From: a virus
Virus record (IMG/VR): IMGVR_UViG_3300045988_093262
Reading direction: 5' to 3' (one strand)
DNA length: 31,869 bases
In this document: one piece after another, positions 13,295-23,945 of the stretch
How the letters are laid out: every line of letters begins with the position of its first letter
How positions within the stretch are numbered: position 1 is the stretch's first letter
Notes under the pieces: generated by a model
Databases searched by the model: none
The model's input: the letters and a program-made list of their open reading frames with translations, nothing else
Told to the model about the DNA's origin: nothing
Made by a program: the position numbers and the translations under genes

Positions 13295-13311
13295 TGACCT
13301 CTCCTCTCCTG

Positions 13312-13369
13312 CCGGGGGCCTCTCCCCCTCGTTGGTTAATATCTTACCACAACTATTAAGCGATTACAA
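13312..13369 (-). promoter_or_regulatory. Conserved promoter cassette, copy 1
   Basis: Minus strand has -35 TTGTAA, 17 nt, then the extended -10 TGGTAAGAT. A hairpin GGGGGAGAGGCCCCC and a GGAGAGGAGAGG ribosome binding site follow. Confidence 0.55.
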
Positions 13370-13370
13370 C

Positions 13371-13402
13371 AAAAAAGCCCCCCGATTTTTCGGAGGGCTT
13401 TT
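13371..13402. terminator. Bidirectional rho-independent terminator
   Basis: Hairpin gccccccga-uuuuu-cggagggc with an A6 tract on one side and a T4 tract on the other. It lies downstream of ssb. Confidence 0.6.
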
Positions 13403-13518
13403 CGAGAAAGAAGGGATGCATGCCCGCATCGGCTGGATTGTATCACGAAATGGAAGGAGGCGCCCCGTAGGACGCCCCCAGTCCCGCAATTGCAGAACTC
13501 ACCTCGGTTCCTATTGTA

Positions 13519-13908
13519 CTAGAAGGGGATGTCCTCTTCAAACTCGTCTGAGTCGTCCTTGGCCGGCTTCTGCGGGGCGTTCTGCCTTGAGGCGTCCACG
13601 AACTCGCGGACCAGCAGCTCGACCTTGGAGCGGCGCTCGCCCTCCTTGCTCTCCCAGCTCCTTTGCGTCAGCTCGCCGTTGAGGACGATTCTGTCGCCCT
13701 TCTGCTTGCGGGCCAGAACCTCGGCGGCCTTGCCGAATGCCACGAAGTCGAAGAAGTTGGGGACGTCCTCCCAGTCCCCGCTCTGGCCCTTCCGGCGGGA
13801 GTTGTAGCAGATTGAGCCGTTGCACACCGGGGTGCCCGAGGTGGTGGCGCGAAGCTCGGGGTCCTTGGTGAGGTTGCCGCTGACCGTGTAGGTGTTGATT
13901 GAGAACAT
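13519..13908 (-). CDS. ssb: Single-stranded DNA-binding protein
   Basis: 129 aa with an OB-fold-like N-terminus. The acidic C-terminal tail ...DDSDEFEEDIPF is the SSB-Ct signature. Confidence 0.85.
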   Translation of the reverse strand: MFSINTYTVSGNLTKDPELRATTSGTPVCNGSICYNSRRKGQSGDWEDVPNFFDFVAFGKAAEVLARKQKGDRIVLNGELTQRSWESKEGERRSKVELLVREFVDASRQNAPQKPAKDDSDEFEEDIPF

Positions 13909-13930
13909 TCGCTTTCTCCTGTCTGTCGTA

Positions 13931-14006
13931 TGGTGCGCGGGGCGGGACTCGAACCCGCAGCCTGCTGCTTAGGAGGCAGCCGCTCTGTCCGTTGGGCTAC
14001 CCGCGC
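13931..14006 (-). tRNA. tRNA-Arg (anticodon CCU)
   Basis: 76 nt read on the minus strand. Acceptor stem GCGCGGG/CCCGCGC. Anticodon stem GCTGC/GCAGC with loop CUCCUAA, giving anticodon CCT. T arm GCGGG-TTCGAGT-CCCGC. Discriminator A followed by CCA. Confidence 0.8.
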
Positions 14007-14008
14007 GT

Positions 14009-14767
14009 CTAGATGTGCTTGCACCAGTTCCGAAGCACCATGAGGGCCACTTGGGCCTGAGCGTCCGTCAGGGTCTGTGTCTTGGCCGTGGTCCCCGACT
14101 TGCGCATGGTTGGCGTCTCGTATAGGGCCTCCAAGACCTCCCGGGTGCTCTTGTGCTTGGCGTCGCCGAAGGTCTTGGCGAGGTCGAGGAGGGTTGTCAT
14201 CTGGTCCTTGGTCGGTAGCGGGTCCCTCGGAGGCTCTTGGTCCTTCTTGATGCCGCCGTAGCGGTAAACCATGTCCCGCTTGCCCTCGTGGCTGATTGCC
14301 AGCCATACAATCTCACCGTTGGCGACGGTCATGTCCGTAACCTCGAAGCGGTCGAGGCACTGCCACTTGTTCGTCCGCTGGTTCTGGCTGAGCTTCTGGA
14401 GCTTGTCCGCCGGGACCCAAATGAAGGGTGCCGTGTATAGCTCACGACCGATTCCCCAAGCGAAGCCCGCCCGCTTCATGGCGTCGCTGGCCTCGCCCTT
14501 CTGCGCCTCCATGTTGGACTCCGTGCCGCAATTCTCCTTGGAGATTACCTTGCCGTCAAAGAGAATCGAAATCTTGCAGAAGAGGCTGCCCTTGACCTCT
14601 CGGTAGTCGCACCCCCAGCGCTCTGGTCCAACCGTCTCGTCGAGGAGCGCGTAGTCGGTTCGTGCGGTCTTGTAGAGCAGCAGGGAGGCACCCTTGGCCG
14701 AACACTGGGCCACTCGGGCCTCTACCTCGTTGGGCCTGAGGTCGCGGAAGAGGCCGGCCATTACCAC
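14009..14767 (-). CDS. Rad52-like single-strand annealing protein (Sak/Erf-like recombinase)
   Basis: The motif EASDAMKRAGFAWGIGRELY resembles the Rad52 SDAlKRA..FG..LG..LY signature. Adjacent to ssb. Confidence 0.55.
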   Translation of the reverse strand: MVMAGLFRDLRPNEVEARVAQCSAKGASLLLYKTARTDYALLDETVGPERWGCDYREVKGSLFCKISILFDGKVISKENCGTESNMEAQKGEASDAMKRAGFAWGIGRELYTAPFIWVPADKLQKLSQNQRTNKWQCLDRFEVTDMTVANGEIVWLAISHEGKRDMVYRYGGIKKDQEPPRDPLPTKDQMTTLLDLAKTFGDAKHKSTREVLEALYETPTMRKSGTTAKTQTLTDAQAQVALMVLRNWCKHI

Positions 14768-15027
14768 ACCTCTGCGTCGACCATGAGGTTCAGCTCGTTG
14801 AACGCGGCCATCATGCCGTGCTCACCCTCCTCGCAGCGGACCGTCACCACGGCGTCGTCCACTGGAAGACCCTCGTGGTCCTCGGCGTCGAGGAAGACGT
14901 CGTCGGAGGTCGCATACGCGATTGCCTCGGAATCCGCTTGGTAGCGCTTGACGAACCCAAGCTCGAACGGGCGGCGAAACTCCCCGTCCATGACGTGCCC
15001 CTTGATTGTGTACTGATACTTGCGCAT
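14761..15027 (-). CDS. Hypothetical protein
   Basis: An internal Met (MRKYQYTIKGHV...) follows promoter cassette copy 2. The region upstream within ORF 14761-15168 is out of frame. Confidence 0.4.
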   Translation of the reverse strand: MRKYQYTIKGHVMDGEFRRPFELGFVKRYQADSEAIAYATSDDVFLDAEDHEGLPVDDAVVTVRCEEGEHGMMAAFNELNLMVDAEVW

Positions 15028-15044
15028 TTCGAACTCCCTTCCTA

Positions 15045-15087
15045 CTTGGGTGCCCCTTGCCCCCTCGTTGGTTAACATGTTACCACA
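15045..15087 (-). promoter_or_regulatory. Conserved promoter cassette, copy 2
   Basis: TTCTCGG lies about 22 nt upstream of TGGTAACAT. A G-rich element GAGGGGGCAAGGGGCACCC and a GGAAGGGAG ribosome binding site follow, then ATG 15027. Confidence 0.5.
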
Positions 15088-15125
15088 CTTGGAGGCTTGG
15101 GGCACCGAGAAACTTTGGAATTTTC

Positions 15126-15344
15126 CTACTCCTCTTCCTCCTCCTCGGGGTAGGAGATGTCGTCGCACTCGAACCAGACGAAATCATTGACGTCCGTCTC
15201 GGTCGGGATTTCGTCGACGAACATGTCCTCGATTCGCGCGCATACCAACTGGCGCTGCTCCTCGGTGGCGTCGTCCATTCTCGCCTTGGCCACTCCCCAG
15301 AACTCGAAATCCTCTGGGTCAACATCGCGCTTGACAATCATTTC
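15126..15344 (-). CDS. Hypothetical acidic protein (C-terminus ...YPEEEEEE)
   Basis: An internal Met (MIVKRDVDPEDFEFW...) gives about 72 aa. Confidence 0.35.
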   Translation of the reverse strand, partial: EMIVKRDVDPEDFEFWGVAKARMDDATEEQRQLVCARIEDMFVDEIPTETDVNDFVWFECDDISYPEEEEEE

Positions 15345-15366
15345 CGTTCTCCTCTCTTTCCGAACT

Positions 15367-15600
15367 CTACTGGAAAAGGCCATGCTTCTGGTAGTCGCTG
15401 ACATATGCGAGCTTGACGCCAATCACCGCCGCTATGTCTCTGGTGGTAGGCTCCTCGAAGGTCCGGTAGCCCTTGCGCCTCAGCGCCTTGCTCGCCGCCC
15501 TCGTGATGCCCTTGGCCGTCGTCGCCCGGCTTGTGAAGTACGTGTGCGCAGAATCAAAGCTGTTCGGGCGAATGCTGACCTCGACGTAGTATGTATCCAT
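15367..15600 (-). CDS. Small DNA-binding (HTH-like) protein
   Basis: 77 aa. The segment TRDIAAVIGVKLAYVSDYQK is HTH-like. Confidence 0.35.
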   Translation of the reverse strand: MDTYYVEVSIRPNSFDSAHTYFTSRATTAKGITRAASKALRRKGYRTFEEPTTRDIAAVIGVKLAYVSDYQKHGLFQ

Positions 15601-15609
15601 TTTCCCCTC

Positions 15610-15909
15610 CTAGAGGCCGAGCATGACCTTGACAGCAGTCCACTTGAGGTCGGCCTCGGCGGCGGCAAAGTCGAACCTTGCGTTGATGTTCTTGTCGTAC
15701 TCCTCGCGCTTCTCCTCGGAGAGGGCGTCCCATTCCTCGTCGGTGAAGTCGGCATCGATGTGCGCATACAGGAACAGACCGCGAACGTTGTCTATGTCCC
15801 TGCTGGGCATGCTATCGTTGCTGCCGCTCCAAGAGAGGTGCTTCTCCAGCAGCATCTTGACGGCATCGTTGTGGGGCTGGTCCTCGTTCCTGTAGGTGAG
15901 CTTCTTCAT
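15610..15909 (-). CDS. Hypothetical protein
   Basis: 99-aa ORF immediately after promoter cassette copy 3. Confidence 0.45.
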   Translation of the reverse strand: MKKLTYRNEDQPHNDAVKMLLEKHLSWSGSNDSMPSRDIDNVRGLFLYAHIDADFTDEEWDALSEEKREEYDKNINARFDFAAAEADLKWTAVKVMLGL

Positions 15910-15926
15910 CTTGGTTCCCTTCTCTA

Positions 15927-15990
15927 CTTGGGGGGCCTCTCCCCCCTCGTTGGCTTATATATTACCACTACCGCGAGAAAAACAACCGAG
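15927..15990 (-). promoter_or_regulatory. Conserved promoter cassette, copy 3
   Basis: TTCTCGG, then TTGTTT, then TGGTAATAT. The hairpin GGGGGGAGAGGCCCCCC and an AGAAGGGAA ribosome binding site follow, then ATG 15909. Confidence 0.55.
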
Positions 15991-15996
15991 AAAGTC

Positions 15997-16025
15997 AAAA
16001 AAAGCCCCCCGATTTCTCGGAGGGC
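15997..16025 (-). terminator. Rho-independent terminator
   Basis: Hairpin GCCCUCCGAGAAAUCGGGGGGC followed by U7 on the minus strand. Confidence 0.6.
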
Positions 16026-16030
16026 CTGAG

Positions 16031-16078
16031 CTACTGGGGAACTACTGGGGAACTACTGGGGAACTACTGGGGAACTGG
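16031..16078. repeat. 11-bp tandem direct repeat (ctactggggaa), 4.4 copies
   Basis: Read directly: ctactggggaa appears four times, followed by ctgg. Confidence 0.9.
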
Positions 16079-16102
16079 TGACATTTCCATGTCACTAGTG
16101 AC
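16078..16102. repeat. Nested palindromes GTGACATTTCCATGTCAC and GTCACTAGTGAC
   Basis: Perfect inverted repeats read directly. They lie immediately downstream of the HNH gene stop codon. Confidence 0.85.
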
Positions 16103-16105
16103 TTT

Positions 16106-16531
16106 CTACTCCGCCCCCGTTCTCACCGGCTTCCAACCGTCCATTTCTAACGCCTCTTGGTACTTGCAAGGCTCTGGGGTCTCCAGATACTCCCAGTGTC
16201 CGCCCCTTGACGGCTCTCCGTCGTAGTAGCCGAACGTCTGGGGCCTGAGCGGCTTCCATCCCTCGTGCCAAGGCTGCTTGACGTACCGGAAGTGAAGCCT
16301 GCCCTGATGGGCCTTCCCATGACACCCCAAGGCGTTCCCAGACCCGCAGAGCATGAGCGTCGGCTTTGGGAGCCTCACCCCATTCACGTAGCGCTCGCCC
16401 GCGCTCCTCTTGACCACGTGGTGGCGGTTGAGCGGCCATCTGGCACCGCAGACGCAGCAGTAGGGGGTCTCGACGCTCGGCCCCTCCATGAGCGGCCACC
16501 AGATAGGGGCAAGGGTCGTGACCTTAGCCAT
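16106..16531 (-). CDS. HNH endonuclease
   Basis: CCVCGARW...NRHHVVKRSAGE...LCGSGNALGCHGKAH, a CxxC...HH...CxxH HNH-type zinc-binding nuclease motif. Confidence 0.7.
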   Translation of the reverse strand: MAKVTTLAPIWWPLMEGPSVETPYCCVCGARWPLNRHHVVKRSAGERYVNGVRLPKPTLMLCGSGNALGCHGKAHQGRLHFRYVKQPWHEGWKPLRPQTFGYYDGEPSRGGHWEYLETPEPCKYQEALEMDGWKPVRTGAE

Positions 16532-16946
16532 CCTCGCGCTCCTCCCTTACCAGCCTGCCAAGCCCCGTCGCCTTCTTGAGACAGTCGATAGCCTTCATGG
16601 CGTCCTTCTCTGGGTCCTCCTTGGACCACATGCGCCAGACGTATTTGAACGACGTCGCCCAGTACCAGAATTGAATCGGGGTGCGCTCGGCTATGCAAGC
16701 TTGGGACGAGGCGGCCTCGATAGCCCGGTCGCACGTGACGAAGCCGTCTCCCTCGTAGTGCTCTGGGACGCTCCCGAATGGGTTTTCCTGTCCAATCTTG
16801 CCACGGTAGCCAGCCAGCAGCAAATCCTTCTCGTAGCACCTGTCTTGTAGCCTCGCAACCATTCCGCGAAGCTCCTTGATGGTCCTCCGGGCCTTTCTCA
16901 GGTGCCTCGCCGCCACCCCGCGGCGCTCATCGTCGCTAACCTTCAT
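16524..16946 (-). CDS. DUF3310-family phage protein
   Basis: EHYEGDGFVTCDRAIEA...WATSFKYVWRMWSKEDPEKDAMKAIDCLKKA matches the DUF3310 pattern (hY..G.E....KY..R...K...DL.KA..YL). The N-terminal part of ORF 16524-16997 is uncertain. Confidence 0.5.
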   Translation of the reverse strand: MKVSDDERRGVAARHLRKARRTIKELRGMVARLQDRCYEKDLLLAGYRGKIGQENPFGSVPEHYEGDGFVTCDRAIEAASSQACIAERTPIQFWYWATSFKYVWRMWSKEDPEKDAMKAIDCLKKATGLGRLVREEREDG

Positions 16947-17217
16947 CCAAGCCCAGCTCCTTTCCGCAAAACGGGCAGAACCTCGGGACCGTCTCAATCT
17001 CGTCCCAATCGGTTATGTAGGTGCCATCATTTTCGAAGTGTGACACTTGGAACACGAGGCCGCACCGTGGGCACTGGACGGCATCAACGTAGTCGCAGTC
17101 GGCTATCGAGGTGACCTCGTTGAAGTCGACCGTCTTGCGAGGCTTCCACCTCTGGTGTGACGGGACCGCTCCGCACCTCGGGCAGTCAGCGCCCCTCGCG
17201 AACCTCCTAGCCCTCAT
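16936..17217 (-). CDS. Small zinc-ribbon protein with three CPxCG motifs
   Basis: An internal Met (MRARRFARGADCPRCG...CPRCG...CPFCG) defines the gene. The N-terminal 89 aa of ORF 16936-17484 are out-of-frame overlap. Confidence 0.45.
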   Translation of the reverse strand: MRARRFARGADCPRCGAVPSHQRWKPRKTVDFNEVTSIADCDYVDAVQCPRCGLVFQVSHFENDGTYITDWDEIETVPRFCPFCGKELGLDEG

Positions 17218-17566
17218 CGCAGACACCCGCCAGAGACTTGGCGCGGCAAACGAGGTCGCGGGCCATCGCTGCAACTCGACCGTCGCTTCCCACTTCGATT
17301 CCGCGACCCTCGGTGTAGTCCCTCGGGGTCTTCCGCGCGTCCTCCTCCAAGCTCTCCCAGCCATCGGGCATGGTGCATGAGCTGACGCATATGTCGATGC
17401 GCTCCCAGAATTCCACGAACCAGCACTTGAGCCTGATGCTGTAGAGGAAGCTGTAGACCTCCCTCGTCTCGCCCCTGTAGACAAGCTCCTTGGTGTCCAG
17501 CGGCACCACGCAGCCGTTGGCGTCTATGGGAGCTGGAATGCCCTCGGGCCAGACCCTAGTCTTCAT
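17207..17566 (-). CDS. Hypothetical protein
   Basis: 119-aa ORF on the coding strand. Confidence 0.4.
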   Translation of the reverse strand: MKTRVWPEGIPAPIDANGCVVPLDTKELVYRGETREVYSFLYSIRLKCWFVEFWERIDICVSSCTMPDGWESLEEDARKTPRDYTEGRGIEVGSDGRVAAMARDLVCRAKSLAGVCDEG

Positions 17567-17888
17567 CTTCTACCACCTCCGCGTAGCAGTGCGGGCAGAA
17601 CTCGTAACGCCCGCTAATCTCCTCGCACGTCTCTCCGCAATTTGAGCACTCCCAGACGTTTACGGTCCCGCCGCTTTCCGTCTGGTAGGAGTCCGTCTTC
17701 TCCATGGTGCATGTCGGTTGGTCCACCAGCTCGGCCAAGACCTCCCCGAAAGCCTCGGCCTTGAAGCCTCCACAAGCCGAACCGATTGCCTTGGCAACGG
17801 CGACGTCCAGCCACTCGTCTCTCTTGACCGACGCCCTCAGGGAGTCGGCAGCCCTGCGGCGCGCCTCGCACATGTCCCTCGGTTCCAT
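17556..17888 (-). CDS. Hypothetical protein with a C-terminal zinc ribbon (CSNCG...CPHC)
   Basis: 110-aa ORF. Confidence 0.4.
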   Translation of the reverse strand: MEPRDMCEARRRAADSLRASVKRDEWLDVAVAKAIGSACGGFKAEAFGEVLAELVDQPTCTMEKTDSYQTESGGTVNVWECSNCGETCEEISGRYEFCPHCYAEVVEDED

Positions 17889-18329
17889 CTACTCGACCCC
17901 CGTAGAGCCGTAGCCGTCAGTCCCTCTGTCGGACTCTCCAAGCTCATTGACCGTCCAGAAGTGCGCCTTGACGTACGGGACGATTACCAGCTGGCAAATC
18001 CTGTCGCCTGGATTGACCGTGAACGGCTCGGCTCCGAGGTTCAAGAGCTTGGCCCTGACTTCCCCTCTGTATCCAGAGTCGATGATGCCCGTGCCGTTCG
18101 CAAGGCAGATTCCGTGCTTGCAGCCGAGGCCGCTCCTCGGGAACTGGAAGCCCACGTGGCCGTGGGGAATCTCGACCCTGACGCCCGTCCCGACCCACTC
18201 GGATGTCCCTGGCTGGATGGTTAGCGGCCCGCTGATTGCGGCCCTCATGTCAGCACCCGCATCCCCCTCGTGGGCGTAGGCGGGGACGAACCCCTCCTCG
18301 CACACGACGTTCACAGGAACCTCAAGCAT
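17889..18329 (-). CDS. dut: dUTP diphosphatase (dUTPase)
   Basis: dUTPase motifs AYAHEGDAGADM, RSGLG, GIIDSGYRGE, GDRICQLV and RGTDGYGSTG. Start placed at the MLEVPV Met. Confidence 0.85.
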   Translation of the reverse strand: MLEVPVNVVCEEGFVPAYAHEGDAGADMRAAISGPLTIQPGTSEWVGTGVRVEIPHGHVGFQFPRSGLGCKHGICLANGTGIIDSGYRGEVRAKLLNLGAEPFTVNPGDRICQLVIVPYVKAHFWTVNELGESDRGTDGYGSTGVE

Positions 18330-18559
18330 CCGTTCTCCTCTCTCCTTACAAGATGGACGTCCACGCTGCGGAGGAACGTCCCGTTGTAGTCGCTCCACTC
18401 ATTTGACGACTCAAGGGCCGTCTGCCTATCTCGGTGCCTTCCGAGGCAGAGGCCGGCGAAGACGGGACACGTGAAGCTCTTAGCCACAACCTCGTTGTAG
18501 TCCTCGTATTCGCCGTATGAGTCGACCACCTGCCAGACTATCAATGGCCGCAGCTCCAT
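18311..18559 (-). CDS. Hypothetical protein
   Basis: An internal Met (MELRPLIVWQVVDSYGEYEDY...) defines the gene. The upstream part of ORF 18311-18769 is out-of-frame overlap. Confidence 0.35.
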   Translation of the reverse strand: MELRPLIVWQVVDSYGEYEDYNEVVAKSFTCPVFAGLCLGRHRDRQTALESSNEWSDYNGTFLRSVDVHLVRREENGCLRFL

Positions 18560-18837
18560 CCGTAACTCTTTGCGAGCAAAAGCAGCTCTCGGCGAAGGCG
18601 CTTGACGTCCTCCTTGACCTGACGGCTCGCCGCTCCGTCGACCTGCTCGTACTCTGGGGTCCTCGTGATGCTGCCGAGGTCTCCGCCCATGTTGTCGCGG
18701 TGGACGATGACCTGCTCGACAAGCGAGTCCATGAGCGCCTTGCAGAGGCCGGCCTGCGCGACCTGCCACTTGCGGACGTCCTCGCGACCATGACTTCCGA
18801 TTCCCAGCTCGTTCTCGTCCCGAACCCTCGTGCTCAT
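18541..18837 (-). CDS. Hypothetical protein
   Basis: 98-aa ORF. Confidence 0.35.
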   Translation of the reverse strand: MSTRVRDENELGIGSHGREDVRKWQVAQAGLCKALMDSLVEQVIVHRDNMGGDLGSITRTPEYEQVDGAASRQVKEDVKRLRRELLLLAKSYGWSCGH

Positions 18838-19370
18838 TGCATGTCTCCTCTCCTTGTGCTTTCCATCAGCTTACGGGCGTGATACACGACCGCGCACGGA
18901 GTCCTGTGAAGCCTCTTTGCTATGCTGGCAATTCCCAGAACCAGCGCCCTCTCGTCCTCCTCGCTCCAAGAGCCGGGGGCGCCGAGGCCCATCTTCCTTG
19001 CCCTCGTGCTGATGCCGCTCCATGTCCTTCCCGGGCATCCCCCGCGCCAACCCTCCCAGTGCGACCCATGAAGCGGGTAGTTGAGCGCGAGGAATGACAG
19101 CTCCTCAGGCTCCCACGCCCTGCCGGTCGGGCACCGCTTGACGCAGGCGACCCTAAGCTTCCCGGCCCGCTTGACGATTGACTGGCGCGTCCTCTCGGGG
19201 CACTCCCGAGGCCATCCGTCCCACGTGCTCCCTTCCGAGGGGTAGTGCTTGCGGATTGCCTCGTCCTCCCTCTTGGTCCACGGTCTGCCGGTCATCGGAT
19301 GCCCGCCAACCTCAGGCCGAGGCCAAGCAGCCAGCCAAGCAGGATGCACGTTATGACCGTCGTCAGACAC
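18834..19370 (-). CDS. Myb/SANT-like DNA-binding repeat protein
   Basis: Three tandem W-x18-19-W repeats, for example RPWTKREDEAIRKHY...W..ERTRQSIVKR and RAWEPEELSFLALNY...W...PGRTWSGI. The GTG at 19370 or the ATG at 19295 could be the start. Confidence 0.4.
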   Translation of the reverse strand: MSDDGHNVHPAWLAAWPRPEVGGHPMTGRPWTKREDEAIRKHYPSEGSTWDGWPRECPERTRQSIVKRAGKLRVACVKRCPTGRAWEPEELSFLALNYPLHGSHWEGWRGGCPGRTWSGISTRARKMGLGAPGSWSEEDERALVLGIASIAKRLHRTPCAVVYHARKLMESTRRGDMQ

Positions 19371-19563
19371 TCCTCGAACTTCTTCATCGCAGCACTCCTA
19401 CATCCCTTGGACCAACCAGCTGAGCAGCCACACGAACCCGAAGACCACCGTCACCAGAACCATGGGCATGAAAACCTCTCGCAGCTCGTAGCTGCGGACG
19501 AACTCCACGAGGCTGTCCTCGTCCATCATTTCAAACTCTCCTCTCACTCGGACCTACTCGGAC

Positions 19564-19731
19564 CTACTCGAACCAGTCGCGCGGCCTCATTCCAACCGCT
19601 GAGCAAAGGCCCCTGATTGCCTTTTCCGTCAGGTTCGGCTTCCTCTTGTTGTAGATGAAGGCCGTGACCGTGGACTCGCTGACGTGCGCGGCCTGAGCCG
19701 TCTCCCTGATGGTCAGGCCGCGCTCTCGCAT
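19564..19731 (-). CDS. Small XRE-like HTH protein (unannotated ORF, below the 60-aa track cutoff)
   Basis: MRERGLTIRETAQAAHVSESTVTAFIYNKRKPNLTEKAIRGLCSAVGMRPRDWFE has an XRE-like helix-turn-helix. The frame stays open upstream with no canonical start codon, so the start is uncertain. Confidence 0.35.
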   Translation of the reverse strand: MRERGLTIRETAQAAHVSESTVTAFIYNKRKPNLTEKAIRGLCSAVGMRPRDWFE

Positions 19732-19770
19732 CAGCTCGCGGTACCTCTTCCCGTCTATGAAATCACCCCC

Positions 19771-19971
19771 CTACTCGCTGAACCAGACTTCCCCGTTCTC
19801 CTCGACCGTGATAACGACGTCTTCGTAATAGACGTAGAAATCCATGTCCTCGTTCTCGTAGACGTTGCGGCGGATGCTGTGCGCCCTCGGGCCTCTTCCG
19901 ATGACAACGTAGGCGTGACGCTCGATGACGCGCTGGCCGTTGGTGTTGAAATCGCCCTTGAAGTAGAACAT
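19771..19971 (-). CDS. Hypothetical protein
   Basis: 66-aa ORF immediately after promoter cassette copy 4. Confidence 0.4.
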   Translation of the reverse strand: MFYFKGDFNTNGQRVIERHAYVVIGRGPRAHSIRRNVYENEDMDFYVYYEDVVITVEENGEVWFSE

Positions 19972-19990
19972 GGTCTTTCCCCTTCTCCTA

Positions 19991-20060
19991 CCGGGGGGCC
20001 TCCCCCCTCGTTGTCTAATATATTACTACTATCCAGTTCGAAGTAAACCGAGAATCTCAG
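19991..20060 (-). promoter_or_regulatory. Conserved promoter cassette, copy 4
   Basis: TTCTCGG, then TTTACT, then AGTAATATAT. The hairpin GGGGGGAGGCCCCCC and a GGAGAAGGGG ribosome binding site follow, then ATG 19971. Confidence 0.5.
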
Positions 20061-20842
20061 TTTTTTTGCTCGCGCCTGTCAACGCCACCCTTGACGCAAA
20101 CCTTGCAGCTCCCCTTGATGCGGGAGAAAAGCGCGTCAGCCGTCCTCTTGTTGGACTCTCCAGTAACCTTGGTCCACTCGGAGGGCTTGAGCTGCGAGGT
20201 GAACAGCGTCTGGAGGTGGTGGCTCCAGCGGTAGTCGACAATAAGGAAGTACACGGACGCGGACCACTCGGTGAGGGGCGTCTTGCCCACGTCGTCGATT
20301 ATCAGCACCTCGGCCCTCTGGTATCCGAGGGTCGGGTCCGTCCCTCCGTCGAAGCTCGCCTTGATGCGGTCGAACATCTGGGCTTCGGACACGAACAGAG
20401 GGTGCTCCCCCATGCCGGCGAGGGCCTTGGCGATGGCGCAGACCGAATAGGTCTTGCCGACTCCAACGGGTCCGTGAACCCACATCCACCCCGAACCCTC
20501 GGCCCTCTCCCAGTCCGGTTCCACGTCCCGGAACTCCTCGGGGAGGTTGTCCTTGGCCCAAGTCTCCGCACGCTCCTCCCGTGTGACTTCCCCTGATGCC
20601 TCTCTGAGGCTCTGAGGGACGCTCTGAGACGTTTCGCGGCTCCACTCGGTTGCCTCCTTCGGGGACATGGTTCCGAGGGCACAGAAGCGTCCAGACTCGC
20701 AGTGAGCCATGTACTCCTCGATGCCCTCGGCATCAGTGGGCGCGTAGGTCGGTGGGATTCCGTATGCCTTGGCCACCATCTCCAGAGTCTTCCCCCACTT
20801 CATGCGGCGCTTGTAGGCTTGTTCCGGTGTCTCCTGAATCAC
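20057..20842 (-). CDS. DnaC/IstB-like helicase-loader ATPase
   Basis: Walker A GPVGVGKTY, Walker B VLIIDDVG, and an AAA+ sensor region. Confidence 0.75.
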   Translation of the reverse strand: MIQETPEQAYKRRMKWGKTLEMVAKAYGIPPTYAPTDAEGIEEYMAHCESGRFCALGTMSPKEATEWSRETSQSVPQSLREASGEVTREERAETWAKDNLPEEFRDVEPDWERAEGSGWMWVHGPVGVGKTYSVCAIAKALAGMGEHPLFVSEAQMFDRIKASFDGGTDPTLGYQRAEVLIIDDVGKTPLTEWSASVYFLIVDYRWSHHLQTLFTSQLKPSEWTKVTGESNKRTADALFSRIKGSCKVCVKGGVDRREQKN

Positions 20843-20857
20843 TGTCTTATCCTCTCC

Positions 20858-21745
20858 CTAGAACGGGATGTCCTCGTCCCAGTCGGTGCACTTCTCGTCG
20901 ATGCTCTTCCTCCACTCGGCGTCCGCCTTGGCCTTCTCGGCCCTCTCCTTGGCCTTGGGGTCCTCGGGTGCGTTGAGGTAGCCCTCGAACTTGGAGCCGA
21001 AGAGGGTCACGGGCCTCAGGTACTTAGCCATGTCGGTCCCTCCCCACTCCTCGGACTTCTTCCGGATGACCTCCTTGCAGTCCTCGACGGTGAATCCCTC
21101 TCGTAGGCGGGCTAGGACGTGGCGCATTGTGGCCTTCGAGGTCGGGCGGTAGTGGGAACCAGTCTCATTGTTGAGGGCCTGGACAACCTCGGCCACCTTG
21201 CTGCCCTCCTCCTCGTTCCATGGCCTAGAGGGTGCCGGACGCTGTGCGGAAGCCTCCTTCCGCACTATATGTTTTTGGTTTTCCTCTGAGTTATTCATTT
21301 GTATTACTTTGGTATTGCTTACCTCATTTTCGGAAATGTCATTTTGGATTTTTGCCATCCCCATTTCTGATTTTTGAGAAATGGAGATACCCTCAGAGGG
21401 GGCATCGGTTGTGCAGCTTTGCGGAGCCTGGAAAAGCCCCTCGCCCTTCTCGGTGAGCGCATACCACTTGGTGCGGTCAAACGGGAGCTTGTTGTAATTG
21501 CCCGTGACGAGAAGCCCCTCCTCCTCTGCCCTTTTGAGAGCCGTGTTTATTACATTCGCGCTCATGAAAGGCATGAGGTCATGGAATGCCGCGACCGTGT
21601 TGTAGGTCCAGTAGCGGCCATCGTGGAAGTGCTTGCCGTTCGTCTTGTTCTTCTGAATCCAGTAGTTGATATTGCCGAGGAGGATTGAGACGTTCGTCCC
21701 GTACTTGGTGGCAACCTCCACGTCAAACGTCATGTACCTAAGCAT
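20858..21745 (-). CDS. Replisome organizer or replication initiator
   Basis: The N-terminus MLRYMTFDVEVATKYGTN...INYW (Phage_rep_org_N) and the C-terminal RPTSKATMRHVLARLREGFTVEDCKEVIRKKSEEWGGTDMAKYLRPVTLFGSKFEGYL match the phage replisome-organizer N-terminal domain and conserved phage C-terminal domain. The ORF track starts at a TTG at 21757, but the first ATG at 21745 (GGAGGG ribosome binding site) is more likely. The protein ends ...TDWDEDIPF. Confidence 0.7.
   Translation of the reverse strand: MLRYMTFDVEVATKYGTNVSILLGNINYWIQKNKTNGKHFHDGRYWTYNTVAAFHDLMPFMSANVINTALKRAEEEGLLVTGNYNKLPFDRTKWYALTEKGEGLFQAPQSCTTDAPSEGISISQKSEMGMAKIQNDISENEVSNTKVIQMNNSEENQKHIVRKEASAQRPAPSRPWNEEEGSKVAEVVQALNNETGSHYRPTSKATMRHVLARLREGFTVEDCKEVIRKKSEEWGGTDMAKYLRPVTLFGSKFEGYLNAPEDPKAKERAEKAKADAEWRKSIDEKCTDWDEDIPF
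21266..21390. repeat. AT-rich region with TTTTGG(A/T)TTTT repeats inside the replisome-organizer gene; candidate origin of replication
   Basis: The local GC content drops sharply. Repeats include gtttttggtttt, cattttggatttttgcc and tttctgatttttgag. Confidence 0.45.
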
Positions 21746-21757
21746 TTTGCCCTCCAA

Positions 21758-21795
21758 AAGAAAAAAGCCCCCGCGGGGTGATTAGGGCACCCGGC
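21758..21795 (-). terminator. Intrinsic terminator or attenuator immediately upstream of the replisome-organizer ribosome binding site
   Basis: Minus strand has a GC-rich stem GCCC..CACCCCGCGGGGGC followed by UUUUUUCUUUU. Confidence 0.5.
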
Positions 21796-21840
21796 AAAGG
21801 CTTTTCTCTGGATGGCGAGGCTCGGCCCCGCGTGGAAACT

Positions 21841-21869
21841 ATTCTATCGCGGCCCTAATCCGCTGTCAA
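21841..21869 (-). promoter_or_regulatory. Canonical sigma70-type promoter (TTGACA, 17 nt, TAGAAT), with an imperfect inverted repeat around the -10
   Basis: Minus strand has TTGACA at 21869-21864, a 17-nt spacer, and TAGAAT at 21846-21841. A second TATAAT lies just upstream at 21872-21877. The inverted repeat GGCCCCGCG (21824-21832) and CGCGGCCC (21848-21855) flanks the -10 and the +1 position. Confidence 0.6.
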
Positions 21870-21872
21870 CAA

Positions 21873-22130
21873 TTATAGACCATTCTTGTGGAAGTCAAAA
21901 GGGCTTTGGGTGGAATCCTCGACCCCGAGTAGCCATGCGGCCCCGAACTCGGGGAACGCTTCGCTGAGGCGGATGGCCTGCCATGCCGACAGTCTGTAGT
22001 CGCCCTTCTTGAGGTGTGACATGGTCGGGGCTGATATCGCGGTCTCCCTCTCCACCTCAGAGGGGGAATGGACTGTGAGGAACGCGGCAATCCGCGCGGA
22101 AACCAACCTTCTGTGCTCAATCTCGTTCAT
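21873..22130 (-). CDS. XRE/Cro-like HTH transcriptional regulator
   Basis: ETAISAPTMSHLKKGDYRLSAWQAIRLSEAF is an HTH. The gene lies immediately upstream of the promoter and its inverted repeat. Confidence 0.6.
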   Translation of the reverse strand: MNEIEHRRLVSARIAAFLTVHSPSEVERETAISAPTMSHLKKGDYRLSAWQAIRLSEAFPEFGAAWLLGVEDSTQSPFDFHKNGL

Positions 22131-22398
22131 CGCTCTTCTCCTCTCCCATCGGCCTAACCTTGTCCAGTGCGAGGAGCCATGCGGCTGACACGCCGTGACG
22201 CTCTTGGAGCACGAGGGCCATGTCCAGCGTCACGCGGTCGAAGCCGTTCAAGACCCCGTAAATCTTGGAGGACGAGCAGCCGAACGCCTCTGCCGCCTTC
22301 GTGACGCTCAGGCCGCGCTCCATGAGAACGGCCTCAAGACGCCTGCGAGAGACGCCCTGACGCCTCTCCTCGGCTGAGCACCTACCTATGCACGCCAT
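22117..22398 (-). CDS. XRE-family HTH protein
   Basis: An internal Met (MACIGRC...) defines the gene. The segment LSVTKAAEAFGCSSSKIYGVLNG is an HTH. Confidence 0.5.
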   Translation of the reverse strand: MACIGRCSAEERRQGVSRRRLEAVLMERGLSVTKAAEAFGCSSSKIYGVLNGFDRVTLDMALVLQERHGVSAAWLLALDKVRPMGEEKSDERD

Positions 22399-22400
22399 TG

Positions 22401-22562
22401 TCAGACCTCCTCGATGGTGAGCTGGTAGGTCTGGTCGAATCGGTAGGCGTCCACGGCCTCGGGATTGACGTACATGCGCAGCCAGCCGTCCCCGTCCACG
22501 GCCTCGAACTCCACGAAGACGCCCTTCGGCGTCCTCTTCATGCTCTCGATTCTCCAAGTCAT
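22401..22562 (-). CDS. Hypothetical small protein
   Basis: An internal Met (MTWRIESMKRTPKG...) defines the gene. Confidence 0.3.
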   Translation of the reverse strand: MTWRIESMKRTPKGVFVEFEAVDGDGWLRMYVNPEAVDAYRFDQTYQLTIEEV

Positions 22563-22576
22563 CGCTTCTCCTCTCC

Positions 22577-22984
22577 CTAGCAAATGCACTCGTGGATGCT
22601 TATGCTCAGCTTCTCGGGCGACCTCGTTCTCTTGAGCTTTGACACCGTCAGGCTCACAACCTGAGCGTCGTCCTCCCATGCCACCCCGTTGAGCGCGTCT
22701 AGGATGACCTTGGCAACGTTGTCTATGTCGGGCTTGTGTGTGTCCGGCTCGCTGAAGACGCTCTTGGGCGTCGACTTGGGAAGTTGCCTGTAGGTCAATA
22801 TGCTTACGGCAATCGGTCCTGAGAACGGCTCTCGTGGCTTCCTAGGGGCATTCATGTATGCCTCTCTGATTGCCGCCTCGTAGTCCCTCGTGGCCTTGGG
22901 GGTGTAGGCGTGGCCGCCCCTCGTGAACCTCGGGCGGCCCTTGCCCCTCACCTTGCCCCAGACGTCAAACGACACGCTAGACAT
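22577..22984 (-). CDS. rusA: RusA-like Holliday junction resolvase
   Basis: FDVWGKVRGKGRPRF...PDIDNVAKVILDALNGVAWEDDAQV matches the RusA family. Confidence 0.75.
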   Translation of the reverse strand: MSSVSFDVWGKVRGKGRPRFTRGGHAYTPKATRDYEAAIREAYMNAPRKPREPFSGPIAVSILTYRQLPKSTPKSVFSEPDTHKPDIDNVAKVILDALNGVAWEDDAQVVSLTVSKLKRTRSPEKLSISIHECIC

Positions 22985-23273
22985 TCCACCCCTCCATGTA
23001 CATTTCGGCTGCCCTCTCGTTGGCATCGCGCCTGACGTCAATGTGGCTCAGGCCGAAGAGTTTGGCTACGAACTCGGCAAACGCCCACGCCCTCGTGTCT
23101 TGGTCTTCCGCGCACCTCTTGAGCTTTTCGGCGGTGCTGTCGTTTCCCTTCGCGTGGAAGACGCGGCTCCCCTCCTCGAAAACCCTCTTGGAATAGAGTT
23201 CGTCGGCAATCGGCTCGATTGCGCTCTCGTAGGTCAGGGTCGCCGCCTGATACGGTTTCTTTGTGGGGTTCAT
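22977..23273 (-). CDS. Hypothetical protein (paralog A)
   Basis: 98 aa. ...TYESAIEPIADELYSKR... is similar to the adjacent gene. Confidence 0.4.
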   Translation of the reverse strand: MNPTKKPYQAATLTYESAIEPIADELYSKRVFEEGSRVFHAKGNDSTAEKLKRCAEDQDTRAWAFAEFVAKLFGLSHIDVRRDANERAAEMYMEGWNV

Positions 23274-23285
23274 TTTGAACGCTCC

Positions 23286-23582
23286 CTAGTTCTCTGGCAC
23301 CCCGTGGGGCGTGTCGTACTGCTCGTGCATGACCTCGTAGGCCCTGTCCACGACCTCCTCGTAGTCGGTGGCGTACAGGACGGACACGGCCTCTGCTATC
23401 GCCATGGCCTCGGTGAAGCGCCTGTCCGCGCACTCCCTGAGGTTGTCGGCCAGATGCGTCTGGCACATGTCGATTCTCTTGACAACCTCGCGTTCGGCCT
23501 CTCGCTTCCACCAGAGCTTGTCGGCAATCAGGGCGATTGCGTCTGCGTAGGTGGCGGTGCTGGTTCTCGTCTGCTCGCTCAT
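23286..23582 (-). CDS. Hypothetical protein (paralog B)
   Basis: 98 aa. ...TYADAIALIADKLWWKR... is similar to the adjacent gene. Confidence 0.4.
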   Translation of the reverse strand: MSEQTRTSTATYADAIALIADKLWWKREAEREVVKRIDMCQTHLADNLRECADRRFTEAMAIAEAVSVLYATDYEEVVDRAYEVMHEQYDTPHGVPEN

Positions 23583-23591
23583 TTCTTCCTC

Positions 23592-23765
23592 CTAAAGGGC
23601 GTTGGACTCGATGATGTATGAGAAGGCGTCCGGGTCGATGTCGTCGATGGTGGTGGCATCGGGGTTCTCCTCGCGGATGGCCTCCATGATGGCGTCGACG
23701 TCAAACTCACACTCCCAGCCGCTCAGGTAGTCCAGAACCTCGCCCTCGACCCTGCTGTACTCCAT
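23592..23765 (-). CDS. Hypothetical acidic protein
   Basis: An internal Met (MEYSRVEGEVLDYL...) follows promoter cassette copy 5. Confidence 0.35.
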   Translation of the reverse strand: MEYSRVEGEVLDYLSGWECEFDVDAIMEAIREENPDATTIDDIDPDAFSYIIESNAL

Positions 23766-23785
23766 TGTCTGCTCCTCTCGGTTTT

Positions 23786-23850
23786 GGGAGGCCCCTTGCT
23801 CCCCCCTTGTTGACTCATATATTACCACCGTTGTTATTTTTTAACAACCG
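23786..23850 (-). promoter_or_regulatory. Conserved promoter cassette, copy 5
   Basis: TTCTCGG, then TTGTTA, a 17-nt spacer, then TGGTAATAT. A hairpin GGGAG..CTCCC and a GAGAGGAG ribosome binding site follow, then ATG 23765. The palindrome GTTGTTATTTTTTAACAAC overlaps the -35 region. Confidence 0.55.
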
Positions 23851-23856
23851 AGAAGC

Positions 23857-23889: not shown

Positions 23890-23945
23890 CTGAGCCTTGC
23901 GCCGGAGAGGAGGAATACAGCGCTGGGGCTATTGTACCACTCCGG

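What the first reader, a model, noticed from the sequence alone, without database searches (positions are those of the whole stretch)
13312..23850. Five copies of a conserved ~60-bp promoter and 5'-leader cassette sit in front of early and middle gene starts
The cassette occurs at 13312-13369, 15045-15087, 15927-15990, 19991-20060 and 23786-23850. Each copy is 20-40 nt upstream of an ATG and has the same architecture, read here on the minus strand. TTCTCGG lies about 21-23 nt before an extended -10 of the form GTGGTAAnATATnA. Next comes CAACGAGGGGGG(AGAG)GCCCCCC, in which G5-6 and C5-6 form a hairpin. Finally there is (A/C)AGTAGGAGAAGGG, which contains the ribosome binding site. The transcript would begin at the G/C hairpin. 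This looks like a phage-specific promoter class, or start-associated sequence, whose 5' stem-loop could stabilise the mRNA or bind a regulator. Three copies lie directly downstream of intrinsic terminators.
Basis: seen in the sequence. Interest (0 to 1): 0.65.

Follow-up and report, generated by a model that had tools for sequence, protein, structure and literature searches.

The report
Repeated phage promoter-plus-leader expression cassette
A small gut phage starts each of five predicted transcription units with the same roughly 90-base module (a host-type promoter, a G/C hairpin at the start of the mRNA and a strong ribosome-binding site); the module is real and conserved, but it is a kind of regulatory cassette already known from other phages.

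Summary
A covariance model finds exactly five copies in the window, all on the coding (minus) strand and each ending at an ATG. The window is a complete circular 31.7-kb siphovirus-like genome.

Each copy contains:
- an extended -10 (GTGGTAAnAT);
- CAAC(G/A)A at the predicted start site;
- a G-run/C-run hairpin;
- a purine-rich Shine-Dalgarno region.

Four of the five copies also carry TTCTCGG 21-23 nt upstream of the -10 hexamer.

Seven human-gut relatives keep orthologous copies. Distant phage clades with about 50% protein identity keep the same architecture at syntenic positions, some with a canonical TTGACA -35. Stem changes are concerted (GGGGGG/CCCCCC versus GGAGGG/CCCTCC).

The best reading is a host sigma-A-type promoter fused to a 5' leader whose terminal hairpin and strong SD favour stable, well-translated mRNA. 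It is not a phage-specific polymerase class. The cassettes also act as recombination points: one relative has a hybrid of copies C and D and lacks the three genes between them.

The closest known analogue is the PeSL cassette of T4-type phages. No transcript data exist, and the hairpin's role is inferred. Two terminators that are not followed by a cassette leave an antitermination role open.

The parts
23763..23854 (-). Cassette A. Elements: TTCTCGG 23848-23854; -35-like TTGTTA; extended -10 GTGGTAATAT 23819-23828; CAACAA 23807-23812; hairpin arms 23798-23805 and 23786-23792; SD GAGAGGAG; ATG 23763-23765 of a 57-aa gene. It is the first cassette after the lysis genes.
   Evidence: (66.2 bits)
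23867..23890 (-). Intrinsic terminator closing the tail/lysis block, immediately upstream of cassette A.
   Evidence: z = -3.2
19969..20054 (-). Cassette B. Elements: GAGATTCTCGG 20048-20054; -35-like TTTACT (16-nt spacer); GTAGTAATAT 20020-20029 (no TG); CAACGA 20008-20013; G6/C6 hairpin 19994-20007; SD GGAGAAGGGG; ATG 19969-19971. It lies directly after the DnaC-like gene and has no terminator upstream.
   Evidence: (66.2 bits)
15907..15992 (-). Cassette C. Elements: TTCTCGG 15986-15992; GTGGTAATAT 15959-15968; CAACGA 15947-15952; G6-AGAGG-C6 hairpin 15930-15946; ATG 15907-15909 of a 99-aa gene.
   Evidence: (74.8 bits)
16002..16027 (-). Intrinsic terminator upstream of cassette C. It is nearly identical to the terminator upstream of cassette E (GCCCTCCGAnAAATCGGGGGGCTTTTTT), so the repeat unit of C and E extends to about 110 nt.
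15025..15111 (-). Cassette D. Elements: TTCTCGG 15105-15111; GTGGTAACAT 15077-15086; CAACGA 15065-15070; hairpin GGGGGC/GCACCC with one G-A mismatch 15048-15064; ATG 15025-15027. It heads the operon with the Rad52-like gene, tRNA-Arg and SSB, and has no terminator upstream.
   Evidence: (73.4 bits)
13292..13369 (-). Cassette E. Elements: -35-like TTGTAA 13364-13369; 17-nt spacer; GTGGTAAGAT 13341-13350; CAACGA 13329-13334; G5/C5 hairpin 13314-13328; ATG 13292-13294. It has no TTCTCGG. It heads the unit that runs towards the packaging and structural genes.
   Evidence: (65.3 bits)
13372..13403 (-). Intrinsic terminator upstream of cassette E.
   Evidence: -22.3 kcal/mol, z = -4.6
15126..15909 (-). 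Three-gene module (99, 77 and 71 aa) bounded by cassettes C and D. It is absent from relative OUQC01000396, which has a hybrid of the C promoter and the D leader. The 77-aa gene alone is absent from L032 and L034.
9693..9716 (-). Coding-strand terminator 22 nt before the TTG start of the terS-like gene, with no cassette or promoter after it. It bears on the antitermination rival.
21762..21869 (-). The only canonical -35/-10 promoter in the genome (TTGACA-17-TAGAAT, 21869-21841). It is followed by a structured leader of about 80 nt ending in a strong terminator just before the replication gene's RBS. It is not a cassette.
   Evidence: -42.6 kcal/mol, z = -4.6

Best explanation
Each copy is a composite expression cassette read by the host's housekeeping RNA polymerase.

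At the DNA level it consists of:
- an A/T-rich tract;
- a conserved A(A/G)ATT(C/G)TCG element at about -44 to -36;
- a weak or variable -35;
- a Gram-positive-style extended -10 (TG-n-TAAnAT).

Together these should direct initiation at the first A of the invariant CAAC(G/A)A, 7-8 nt after the hexamer.

The resulting mRNA begins with about 5 nt, then a 5-8-bp G/C hairpin, then an unpaired purine-rich Shine-Dalgarno region and the ATG. The hairpin near the 5' end, together with strong ribosome binding, most likely protects the transcript from 5'-end-dependent decay (RppH, RNase J, RNase E) while keeping the SD open. Every predicted transcription unit would then get the same strong and durable expression signal.

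Because the copies share a 12-25-nt identical core, they also serve as substrates for homologous recombination, which shuffles gene modules and swaps cassette halves.

What is shown: the repeat itself, its orientation, its position, its conservation, the concerted stem changes and the recombinant junctions. What is inferred: promoter activity, the start site and the stabilising role of the hairpin.
For: Copy number and placement
- There are exactly five copies, all on the coding strand, and each ends at an ATG preceded by an SD. They occupy five of the roughly seven sizeable intergenic gaps of a complete genome. Completeness rests on a 141-nt exact terminal repeat.
- Three copies directly follow verified terminators.

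Promoter features
- In orthologous copies from seven relatives, the block from the -10 to CAACGAGG is invariant. Only position 4 of TAAnAT varies, which is the least critical -10 position.
- Distant clades have TGTGnTATAnT with TTGACA at 17-18 nt. CAAC always starts 5-6 nt after the hexamer.
- No phage RNA polymerase or sigma gene was found.

Hairpin
- Every one of 29 leaders folds into a hairpin starting 4-9 nt (mostly 6-8) from the predicted 5' end, and the SD is left unpaired in almost all of them.
- The stem of cassette B is GGGGGG/CCCCCC in the window but GGAGGG/CCCTCC in five relatives. G6/C6 becomes G5/C5 in copy C.
- On the model-fitted alignment, 5 of 6 pairs show double changes. The covariation score is 0.188, against 0.074 for shuffles (0 of 500 as high) and 0.005-0.06 for slid controls.
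- Loop length varies from 3 to 11 nt and loop sequence varies too, which fits a structural role.

Deep conservation
- Cassettes sit at syntenic positions (before the Rad52-SSB operon, after the DnaC-like gene) in phages with only about 50% protein identity.

Recombination
- Relative OUQC01000396 has a C/D hybrid cassette and has lost three genes.
- L044 carries a C-like promoter half on a B leader.

Background
- 5'-terminal stem-loops and strong SDs stabilise bacterial mRNA, according to primary studies listed in the review PMC3997798 (I read only passages and the reference list). The same review says B. subtilis RppH needs at least two unpaired 5' nt (prefers three or more) and a G at position 2. 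The predicted 5' end is AACGA.
Against: - There are no transcript data, so the promoter and start site rest on consensus geometry only.
- The generic -35/-10 scan does not call these sites, because the -35 boxes are weak.
- Folding energies of single leaders are not better than dinucleotide shuffles (z = -0.4 to -2.2), because any C-run in a G-rich leader will pair.
- The covariation counts come from an alignment fitted to the structure and from related sequences.
- About 5 unpaired nt at the 5' end may be too many for classical 5'-hairpin protection (from my own recollection of the E. coli ompA work).
- A few orthologues have a weak or broken stem: L034 copy C, L011 copy 2 and L028 copy 8.
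- Strict conservation of CAAC(G/A)A and of ATTCTCG is not explained by a pure stabiliser model.
Confidence: 0.6

Rival explanations
1. The transcribed CAAC(G/A)A plus hairpin is a recognition signal for a trans-acting factor, not a passive stabiliser. One version is a processive antitermination signal, like lambda nut, HK022 put or a LoaP leader, that makes polymerase starting at a cassette resistant to terminators. Another version is a site for a translational or stability regulator that coordinates all operons.
For: - CAAC(G/A)A is near-invariant across clades, although a single-stranded 5' tail would need no specific sequence.
- Two strong coding-strand terminators are not followed by any promoter. 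One is at 9716-9693, 22 nt before the terS-like start, and is conserved in a relative. The other ends the leader in front of the replication gene. Expression of late and replication genes therefore needs read-through.
- The linear motif followed by a short hairpin with a purine-rich loop resembles the boxA/boxB layout (from my own knowledge).
Against: - Loop sequence and length differ among the five paralogues and among clades, which is unlike boxB-type protein sites.
- Three terminators are immediately followed by a new cassette. That would be pointless if cassette-born transcription ignored terminators.
- No N-like, Q-like or other antiterminator was detected.
- No Rfam family matches the cassettes.
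- No window protein is shared specifically with the distant loci that carry cassettes.
Confidence: 0.15
2. The conserved elements are DNA operators. The G-run/C-run inverted repeat just downstream of the start, and/or the ATTCTCG element upstream, bind a phage HTH protein (for example 22117-22398 or 19564-19731) or a host regulator that switches all five units on or off together.
For: - An inverted repeat overlaps the region from about +6 to +25, and there is a conserved element abutting the -35 at a class-II-activator-like position.
- The phage encodes two small HTH proteins and a D5-like regulator.
- Cassette E, which heads the late-directed unit, is the only copy lacking TTCTCGG.
Against: - The spacing of the repeat arms varies from 3 to 11 nt, and the arm sequences change in a compensatory way. 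This fits a folded single strand, not a dimer binding fixed half-sites.
- ATTCTCG is conserved in clades that share no identifiable regulator with the window phage, which points to a host reader such as the polymerase itself.
Confidence: 0.08
3. The repeats are mainly recombination or mobility elements (module boundary sequences, or a MITE-like insertion) with no dedicated role in expression.
For: A hybrid C/D cassette with loss of the intervening genes, and a promoter-half swap in L044.
Against: - Orientation is strict and each copy is placed precisely in front of an SD-ATG.
- Promoter-critical positions are invariant.
- Positions are syntenic at about 50% protein identity.
- Most synteny breakpoints among relatives are not at cassettes.
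- There are no target-site duplications or terminal inverted repeats.
Confidence: 0.05
4. A phage-specific promoter class read by a phage-encoded sigma factor or RNA polymerase.
For: Very high conservation of a block of about 25 nt spanning the start site, reminiscent of T7-type promoters.
Against: - The genome is complete and small, and no RNAP or sigma domain was found in 40 scanned ORFs. The only large ORFs lie in the tail/lysis block and showed no polymerase or sigma domain.
- The conserved block is a textbook extended -10, and relatives add TTGACA at 17 nt.
Confidence: 0.03

Closest known systems
PeSL (promoter-early stem-loop) regulatory cassettes of T4-type myoviruses (Arbiol et al. 2010, PMC2839356; Comeau et al. 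2014, PMC4122927)
   Same: [quoted passage not shown]
- One cassette per small gene in variable regions. The distant clade L019/L028 looks exactly like this.
- Indels between close relatives have their end points in the cassettes.
   Different: - There is no sequence homology. The host phage is a small siphovirus-like phage of a high-GC, probably Gram-positive, gut bacterium.
- The stem-loop lies downstream of the predicted start and has no U-tract. Separate canonical terminators do the terminating in three copies, whereas in PeSLs the stem-loop is the terminator or attenuator.
- The window phage has only five copies, one per transcription unit.
- It has additional conserved ATTCTCG and CAAC(G/A)A elements.
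- Most breakpoints among relatives are not at cassettes.
Extended -10 (TGn / TRTGn) sigma-70/sigma-A promoters of Gram-positive bacteria
   Same: - TG one base upstream of a TAnnnT hexamer.
- A weak or dispensable -35.
- A purine start 7-8 nt downstream.
- Relatives show TGTGnTATAnT, with or without TTGACA at 17-18 nt.
   Different: There is a conserved element at -44 to -36 and a conserved initial transcribed sequence, neither of which is part of the generic promoter definition. Activity is untested.
5'-terminal stem-loop and strong-SD mRNA stabilisers (E. coli ompA and papA, B. subtilis aprE leaders; primary studies listed in the review PMC3997798)
   Same: [quoted passage not shown] The layout matches the aprE-type leader.
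   Different: About 5 unpaired nt are predicted at the 5' end, and the stem is only 5-8 bp. No half-life data exist. The same leader is reused for every operon of a phage.
Start-associated sequences and extended SAS of cluster K mycobacteriophages (Pope et al. 2011, PMC3203893)
   Same: A phage-lineage-specific repeat in one orientation in front of many gene starts. The ESAS adds an imperfect inverted repeat with a variable spacer (4-13 bp) upstream of the RBS. The function of SAS/ESAS is still unknown.
   Different: - The SAS is a 13-bp motif (GGGATAGGAGCCC) that is itself the RBS, 3-7 bp from the start codon, with no promoter attached.
- Here the invariant core is the -10 and start region 35-60 nt upstream, and the SD region is only loosely conserved.
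Lambda nut (boxA-boxB) and HK022 put antitermination signals
   Same: A short linear motif plus a small hairpin transcribed close to phage promoters, in a genome that has terminators needing read-through.
   Different: The loop is not conserved, no N-like protein is present, there is no two-stem put architecture, and terminators are immediately followed by new cassettes. The resemblance comes from my own knowledge and was not tested.

Membership tests
PeSL cassettes (T4-type phages) | [quoted passage not shown] | tested here: inconclusive
   The extended -10 is excellent. The -35 is weak in the window clade (TTGTTA, TTTACT, TTGTAA, or none) and canonical in clade L019. A or T tracts lie upstream in most copies. 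Activity was not measured.
PeSL cassettes (T4-type phages) | Stem-loop, often polyG/polyC, that acts as a terminator or attenuator of upstream transcription | tested here: not met
   A polyG/polyC stem-loop is present, but it lies downstream of the predicted start and has no U-tract (CCCCCCAAGUAG). Separate canonical terminators lie upstream of three copies.
PeSL cassettes (T4-type phages) | SD and start codon of the downstream gene at the 3' end of the cassette | tested here: met
   All five copies do this.
PeSL cassettes (T4-type phages) | Insertions, deletions or replacements between close relatives have end points inside the cassettes | tested here: met
   The C/D hybrid with loss of three genes in OUQC01000396, and the promoter-half swap in L044. 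Most other breakpoints are elsewhere.
PeSL cassettes (T4-type phages) | Resident in T4-type myovirus genomes, concentrated in hyperplastic regions | tested here: not met
   The window is a 31.7-kb genome with an SPP1-type portal, a MuF protein, a CHAP lysin and a Phg_2220_C/DnaC-like replication module.
Extended -10 sigma-70/sigma-A promoter | TG at -15/-14 followed by a TAnnnT hexamer with A at position 2 and T at position 6 | tested here: met
   GTGGTAAnAT in four copies and GTAGTAATAT in copy B. Only hexamer position 4 varies among orthologues.
Extended -10 sigma-70/sigma-A promoter | Transcription initiates 6-8 nt downstream of the hexamer with host holoenzyme | not testable with these tools
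   This needs 5'-end mapping or in vitro transcription. The geometry places the start at the A of CAAC.
5'-terminal stem-loop mRNA stabiliser | [quoted passage not shown] | tested here: inconclusive
   The hairpin starts 4-9 nt (mostly 6-8) from the predicted start in all 29 leaders. The start itself is only predicted, and about 5 unpaired nt is borderline.
5'-terminal stem-loop mRNA stabiliser | Removing the hairpin shortens mRNA half-life | not testable with these tools
   A rifampicin chase with stem-disrupting and compensatory mutants is required.
Cluster K SAS/ESAS | A 13-bp conserved motif that contains the SD, 3-7 bp from the start codon | tested here: not met
   The SD region is purine-rich but variable among the five copies. 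The invariant core lies 35-60 nt upstream of the ATG (PMC3203893).
Intrinsic terminator (for the G/C hairpin itself) | GC-rich stem followed by a U-tract | tested here: not met
   The sequences after the stem are AAGUAG, GGUAGG, GGCAGG and AAAACC. The terminator scan does not call them on either strand.
Any curated RNA family (Rfam 15) | Covariance-model match | tested here: not met
   No hit overlaps a cassette at E <= 1.
Lambda nut / HK022 put-type antitermination signal | Conserved loop or two-stem RNA that renders RNAP terminator-resistant | not tested
   The loops are not conserved among the copies.

The most novel reading that the evidence does not exclude
The transcribed CAAC(G/A)A plus G/C hairpin is a cis-acting RNA signal that loads a host elongation factor (for example a NusG paralogue) or directly modifies RNA polymerase. 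Only transcription born at a cassette would then read through the two conserved terminators that have no promoter after them: the one in front of the terS/late genes at 9716-9693, and the one in front of the replication gene. This would be a put- or LoaP-like processive antitermination system shared by a whole group of gut and rumen phages of high-GC Gram-positive hosts. The conserved ATTCTCG element would be a second, still unknown, polymerase contact.
Probability: 0.1. Interest if true: 0.7.

Novelty: new member of a known kind. Interest (0 to 1): 0.35.

Why it matters
- It gives a ready-made, compact promoter, 5'-UTR and RBS module for a group of uncultured human-gut and rumen phages whose hosts are probably high-GC Gram-positive anaerobes. 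Eggerthellaceae is hinted at but not shown. These bacteria have few genetic parts available.
- It extends the idea of a 'mobile regulatory cassette', known from T4-type phages of Gram-negative bacteria, to small siphovirus-like phages. The junctions of two recombinants are visible here.
- It defines two short conserved elements, ATTCTCG at -44 to -36 and CAAC(G/A)A at +1, whose readers are unknown. They could reveal a feature of transcription initiation in these hosts.
- It is not a new principle of gene regulation.

Tried and rejected
Searches that found nothing or little
- Megablast of 13-24 kb against 50,697 phage records gave no match. A portal tblastn gave only distant hits below 52% identity, to uncultured faecal phages and to phages of Flavonifractor, Butyrivibrio and Clostridium, so no cultured relative exists.
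- The cassette pattern has no hit in 185,579 species genomes, so it is not a host repeat or a common prophage element.
- A locus search with the DnaC-like protein failed.
- Relaxed DNA patterns mostly gave false hits: L002-L004 and L036.

Host identification (inconclusive)
- One Rad52-like hit lies on a phage-like contig binned with an Eggerthellaceae MAG, and another on a contig binned as Succinivibrio.
- Related lysins occur in temperate phage contigs of 64-68% GC from unnamed MAGs.
- The published E. lenta phage KL11 has a 44-kb genome, which does not match this 31.7-kb phage. PMBT5 appeared only as a search hit and was not compared.

Structure tests
- Thermodynamic tests of single leaders are not significant.
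- A strand test comparing G-U with A-C mismatches on the model-fitted alignment was uninformative because of register errors.
- The MAFFT alignment alone recovers only 3 stem pairs.

Search for a cognate factor
- Phylogenetic profiling for a phage-encoded factor gave no candidate.

Ideas considered and dropped
- The hairpin as a terminator: rejected, because there is no U-tract.
- A G-quadruplex: there are too few G-runs.
- CAACGA as a sigma-dependent pause element like the -10-like sequence of lambda PR' (recalled from memory): the critical final T is never present (AACGAG, AACGAC, AACAAG and so on).
- TTCTCG as the -35 itself: the 22-24-nt spacing is too long. In several copies a -35-like hexamer sits directly after it at 16-17 nt.

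Full report
**What the window is**

The window has 60.6% G+C, and every credible gene lies on the minus strand. Its first and last 141 nt are identical, and a relative's contig reads across the junction. The window is therefore a complete, circularly assembled genome of 31,728 unique bases.

Pfam and PHROG scans identify the following genes:
- structural and lysis genes: large tail-region ORFs without informative domain hits, a holin and a CHAP lysin;
- RusA and small HTH proteins;
- a Phg_2220_C plus DnaC-like replication pair;
- dUTPase and an HNH endonuclease;
- a Rad52-like recombinase, tRNA-Arg and SSB;
- an ADP-ribosylglycohydrolase, a ParB-like protein, a queuine-tRNA-ribosyltransferase-like protein and a YhhQ-like transporter;
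- the large terminase subunit, an SPP1-type portal, a MuF-ADP-ribosyltransferase fusion and a capsid protein.

No RNA polymerase or sigma factor was detected in the 40 ORFs scanned. No cultured phage is close.

Yes. The five copies read as described. Motif counts far exceed shuffled expectation:
- CAACGAGGGGG with at most 1 mismatch: 8 against 1.27;
- TGGTAANAT: 4 against 0.13;
- the two-part pattern: 3 against 0.00.

A covariance model built from the copies and their orthologues finds exactly five matches in the window (E <= 6e-11) and nothing else up to E = 1. All matches, here and in 33 other loci, are on the coding strand.

Exact element coordinates are given.
- TTCTCGG is present in four copies, not five.
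- Copy B has GTAG instead of GTGG.
- The stems of copies A and D are imperfect.
- The three upstream terminators are confirmed. Those of C and E are themselves near-identical, so their repeat unit is about 110 nt.

**Anatomy and geometry**

- The hexamer is TAAnAT, with TG one base upstream.
- CAAC begins 6 nt after the hexamer in this clade and 5-6 nt after it in distant clades. The canonical +1 therefore falls on the first A of CAAC.
- TTCTCGG ends 21-23 nt before the hexamer. Across 36 distinct cassettes from several clades, a TTCTCG-like element ends 22-24 nt before the hexamer in 23 of them.
- TTCTCGG is not the -35. It abuts a weak -35-like hexamer: TTGTTA at 17 nt in A, TTTACT at 16 nt in B, and TTGACC at 17 nt in an L018 copy. 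It therefore occupies about -44 to -36.
- Copy E replaces it with the terminator's T-tract followed by TTGTAA-17-TAAGAT.
- On the coding strand TTCTCGG occurs only in the four cassettes.

**Relatives**

Pattern and protein searches recovered seven human-gut relatives at about 80-92% DNA identity. They come from OUQC01000396 (which is the same contig as IMGVR 3300045988_118999), three ERZ assemblies and two Logan contigs. L032 carries all five orthologous cassettes.

In orthologous alignments the block from the -10 to CAACGAGG is invariant, apart from hexamer position 4. ATTCTCG and the -35 region vary moderately.

More distant phages, mostly from IMG/VR metagenome contigs (L008-L012, L017-L019, L026-L028), share about 50% identity in the Rad52-like and portal proteins. 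They have the same architecture: an A-tract, (A/G)ATT(C/G)TCG or TTGACA, TGTGnTATAnT, CAAC(G/A)A or a variant, a G-rich hairpin, and GAAGGGAGCACGAnATG.

Their cassettes sit at syntenic places: before the Rad52-SSB operon, after the DnaC-like gene, and 0.7-1.2 kb upstream of the portal gene, in the same cassette-bounded block as the portal and MuF genes. In L019/L028 nearly every small ORF has its own copy.

Some relatives (L013, L015) keep the GTGCTATAnT promoter without the hairpin. The promoter part therefore looks host-generic, while the hairpin leader is a lineage add-on.

**The hairpin**

- All 29 leaders examined fold into a hairpin beginning 4-9 nt (mostly 6-8) from the predicted 5' end, and the SD is left open in almost all of them.
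- Concerted changes occur. Cassette B is GGGGGG/CCCCCC in the window and GGAGGG/CCCTCC in five relatives, with loop insertions. Cassette C changes from G6/C6 to G5/C5. Cassette D goes from a G-A mismatch to a perfect stem in L034.
- On the model-fitted alignment, 5 of 6 pairs have double changes. The covariation score of 0.188 exceeds all 500 shuffles (mean 0.074) and all slid controls.

Caveats:
- That alignment is fitted to the structure and its sequences are related.
- The plain MAFFT alignment supports only three pairs.
- Folding energies of single leaders are not better than dinucleotide shuffles.
- Three orthologues have weak stems.

Loop length (3-11 nt) and loop sequence vary. This argues against a fixed protein-binding loop and against a DNA operator with fixed half-site spacing.

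**Recombination**

- In OUQC01000396 the promoter half of cassette C is joined to the leader half of cassette D, with the crossover inside the shared CCAACGAGGGGG. The three genes between the cassettes are absent.
- The identical stretch is only 12 nt, so I judge an assembly chimera unlikely, assuming assembler k-mers longer than that.
- L032 and L034 lack only the 77-aa gene.
- L044 has a C-like promoter half on a B leader.
- Most other synteny breaks are not at cassettes, so this is an occasional role and not a dominant one.

**Mechanism**

The best-supported reading is a host sigma-A extended -10 promoter fused to a standard leader. The hairpin near the 5' end and the strong SD would give stable, well-translated mRNA. 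Primary studies listed in the review PMC3997798 report both as mRNA stabilisers. The review also says B. subtilis RppH prefers three or more unpaired nt with G at position 2, whereas the predicted end here is AACGA.

Promoter function is inferred with good confidence. The stabiliser role is inferred with moderate confidence.

The main rival is that the leader is a recognition signal, possibly for processive antitermination. Two strong terminators have no promoter after them: one is 22 nt before the terS-like start, and the other is in front of the replication gene. Against this rival, three terminators are immediately followed by new cassettes, the loops are not conserved, and no antiterminator or shared phage factor was found.

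**Comparison with known systems**

The closest analogue is the PeSL cassette of T4-type phages. PeSLs combine a sigma-70 promoter, an A/T tract, a polyG/polyC stem-loop and an SD-ATG, and they mediate modular shuffling (PMC2839356, PMC4122927).

This cassette works like a PeSL in layout and in recombination. It fails membership on two counts: the stem-loop is transcribed at the 5' end and is not a terminator, and the phage is unrelated.

It is not a cluster K SAS (PMC3203893). No Rfam family matches it.

**Verdict**

This is a real, selected and evolutionarily old regulatory cassette. It is a new example of a known kind and is of moderate interest. The unexplained points are the readers of ATTCTCG and CAAC(G/A)A, and how the two terminators without a following promoter are passed.

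Noticed in passing
window 1-141 and 31729-31869: There is an exact 141-nt terminal direct repeat, and a relative's contig (L033) reads across the junction. The window is therefore a complete, circularly assembled phage genome of 31,728 unique bases.
   Followed up: yes
window 21762-21869 (-): This is the only canonical promoter in the genome (TTGACA-17-TAGAAT). It is followed by a highly structured leader or small RNA of about 80 nt (-42.6 kcal/mol, z = -4.6) that ends in a strong terminator immediately before the RBS of the Phg_2220_C replication gene. There is a weak Rfam ctRNA_p42d hit (E = 0.07). It looks like an attenuator or a replication-control RNA.
   Followed up: partly
window 9693-9716 (-): A strong intrinsic terminator (GGGAGGCA...UGCCUCCC followed by UUUCUUUU) lies 22 nt before the TTG start of the terS-like gene, with no promoter after it. 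It is conserved in relative OUQC01000396. Late genes therefore appear to need terminator read-through.
   Followed up: partly
window 9745-11254 (-), riboswitch-like element 10400-10442: A queuine-tRNA-ribosyltransferase/DpdA-like gene (phrog_887, E = 5e-33) sits next to a YhhQ/Vut_1-type transporter. The transporter is preceded by a preQ1-I riboswitch-like element (26.4 bits, below the gathering threshold of 39; local E = 8e-4) and a promoter-like TGGACA-18-TAAAAT. This may be a 7-deazaguanine (DNA modification) module with its own riboswitch. The module is missing from relative L035.
   Followed up: partly
window about 16036-16100 (-): Directly after the HNH endonuclease gene (16106-16531) there is an inverted repeat, GTGACAT-N4-ATGTCAC. 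It is followed by about 4.5 tandem copies of an 11-nt unit (TTCCCCAGTAG), which is one helical turn per unit. The repeats are conserved in relatives. They could be iterons or a packaging or protein-binding site.
   Followed up: no
window 13931-14006 (-): A tRNA-Arg (anticodon CCU) lies between the Rad52-like and SSB genes, inside the operon driven by cassette D.
   Followed up: no
window 4662-6617 (-) and 11757-12632 (-): The phage has a MuF-like head protein fused to an ADP-ribosyltransferase toxin domain. Elsewhere it encodes an ADP-ribosylglycohydrolase. This is a possible writer/eraser pair.
   Followed up: no
L019 15000-20500 and L028 (IMGVR_UViG_3300037453_000373, a 95.5-kb contig): A distant relative carries at least ten cassettes in about 6 kb, one in front of almost every small ORF. 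All share a conserved 11-nt loop (GAAACGAAGUA) and the RBS block GAAGGGAGAACGACATG. This is a PeSL-like array.
   Followed up: partly
L042 and L043 (Logan contigs), L039: Lysins 64-76% identical to the window's CHAP lysin occur in temperate phages of 64-68% GC (one carries a serine recombinase). These phages have no such cassettes. This hints at a host GC content above that of the phage.
   Followed up: no
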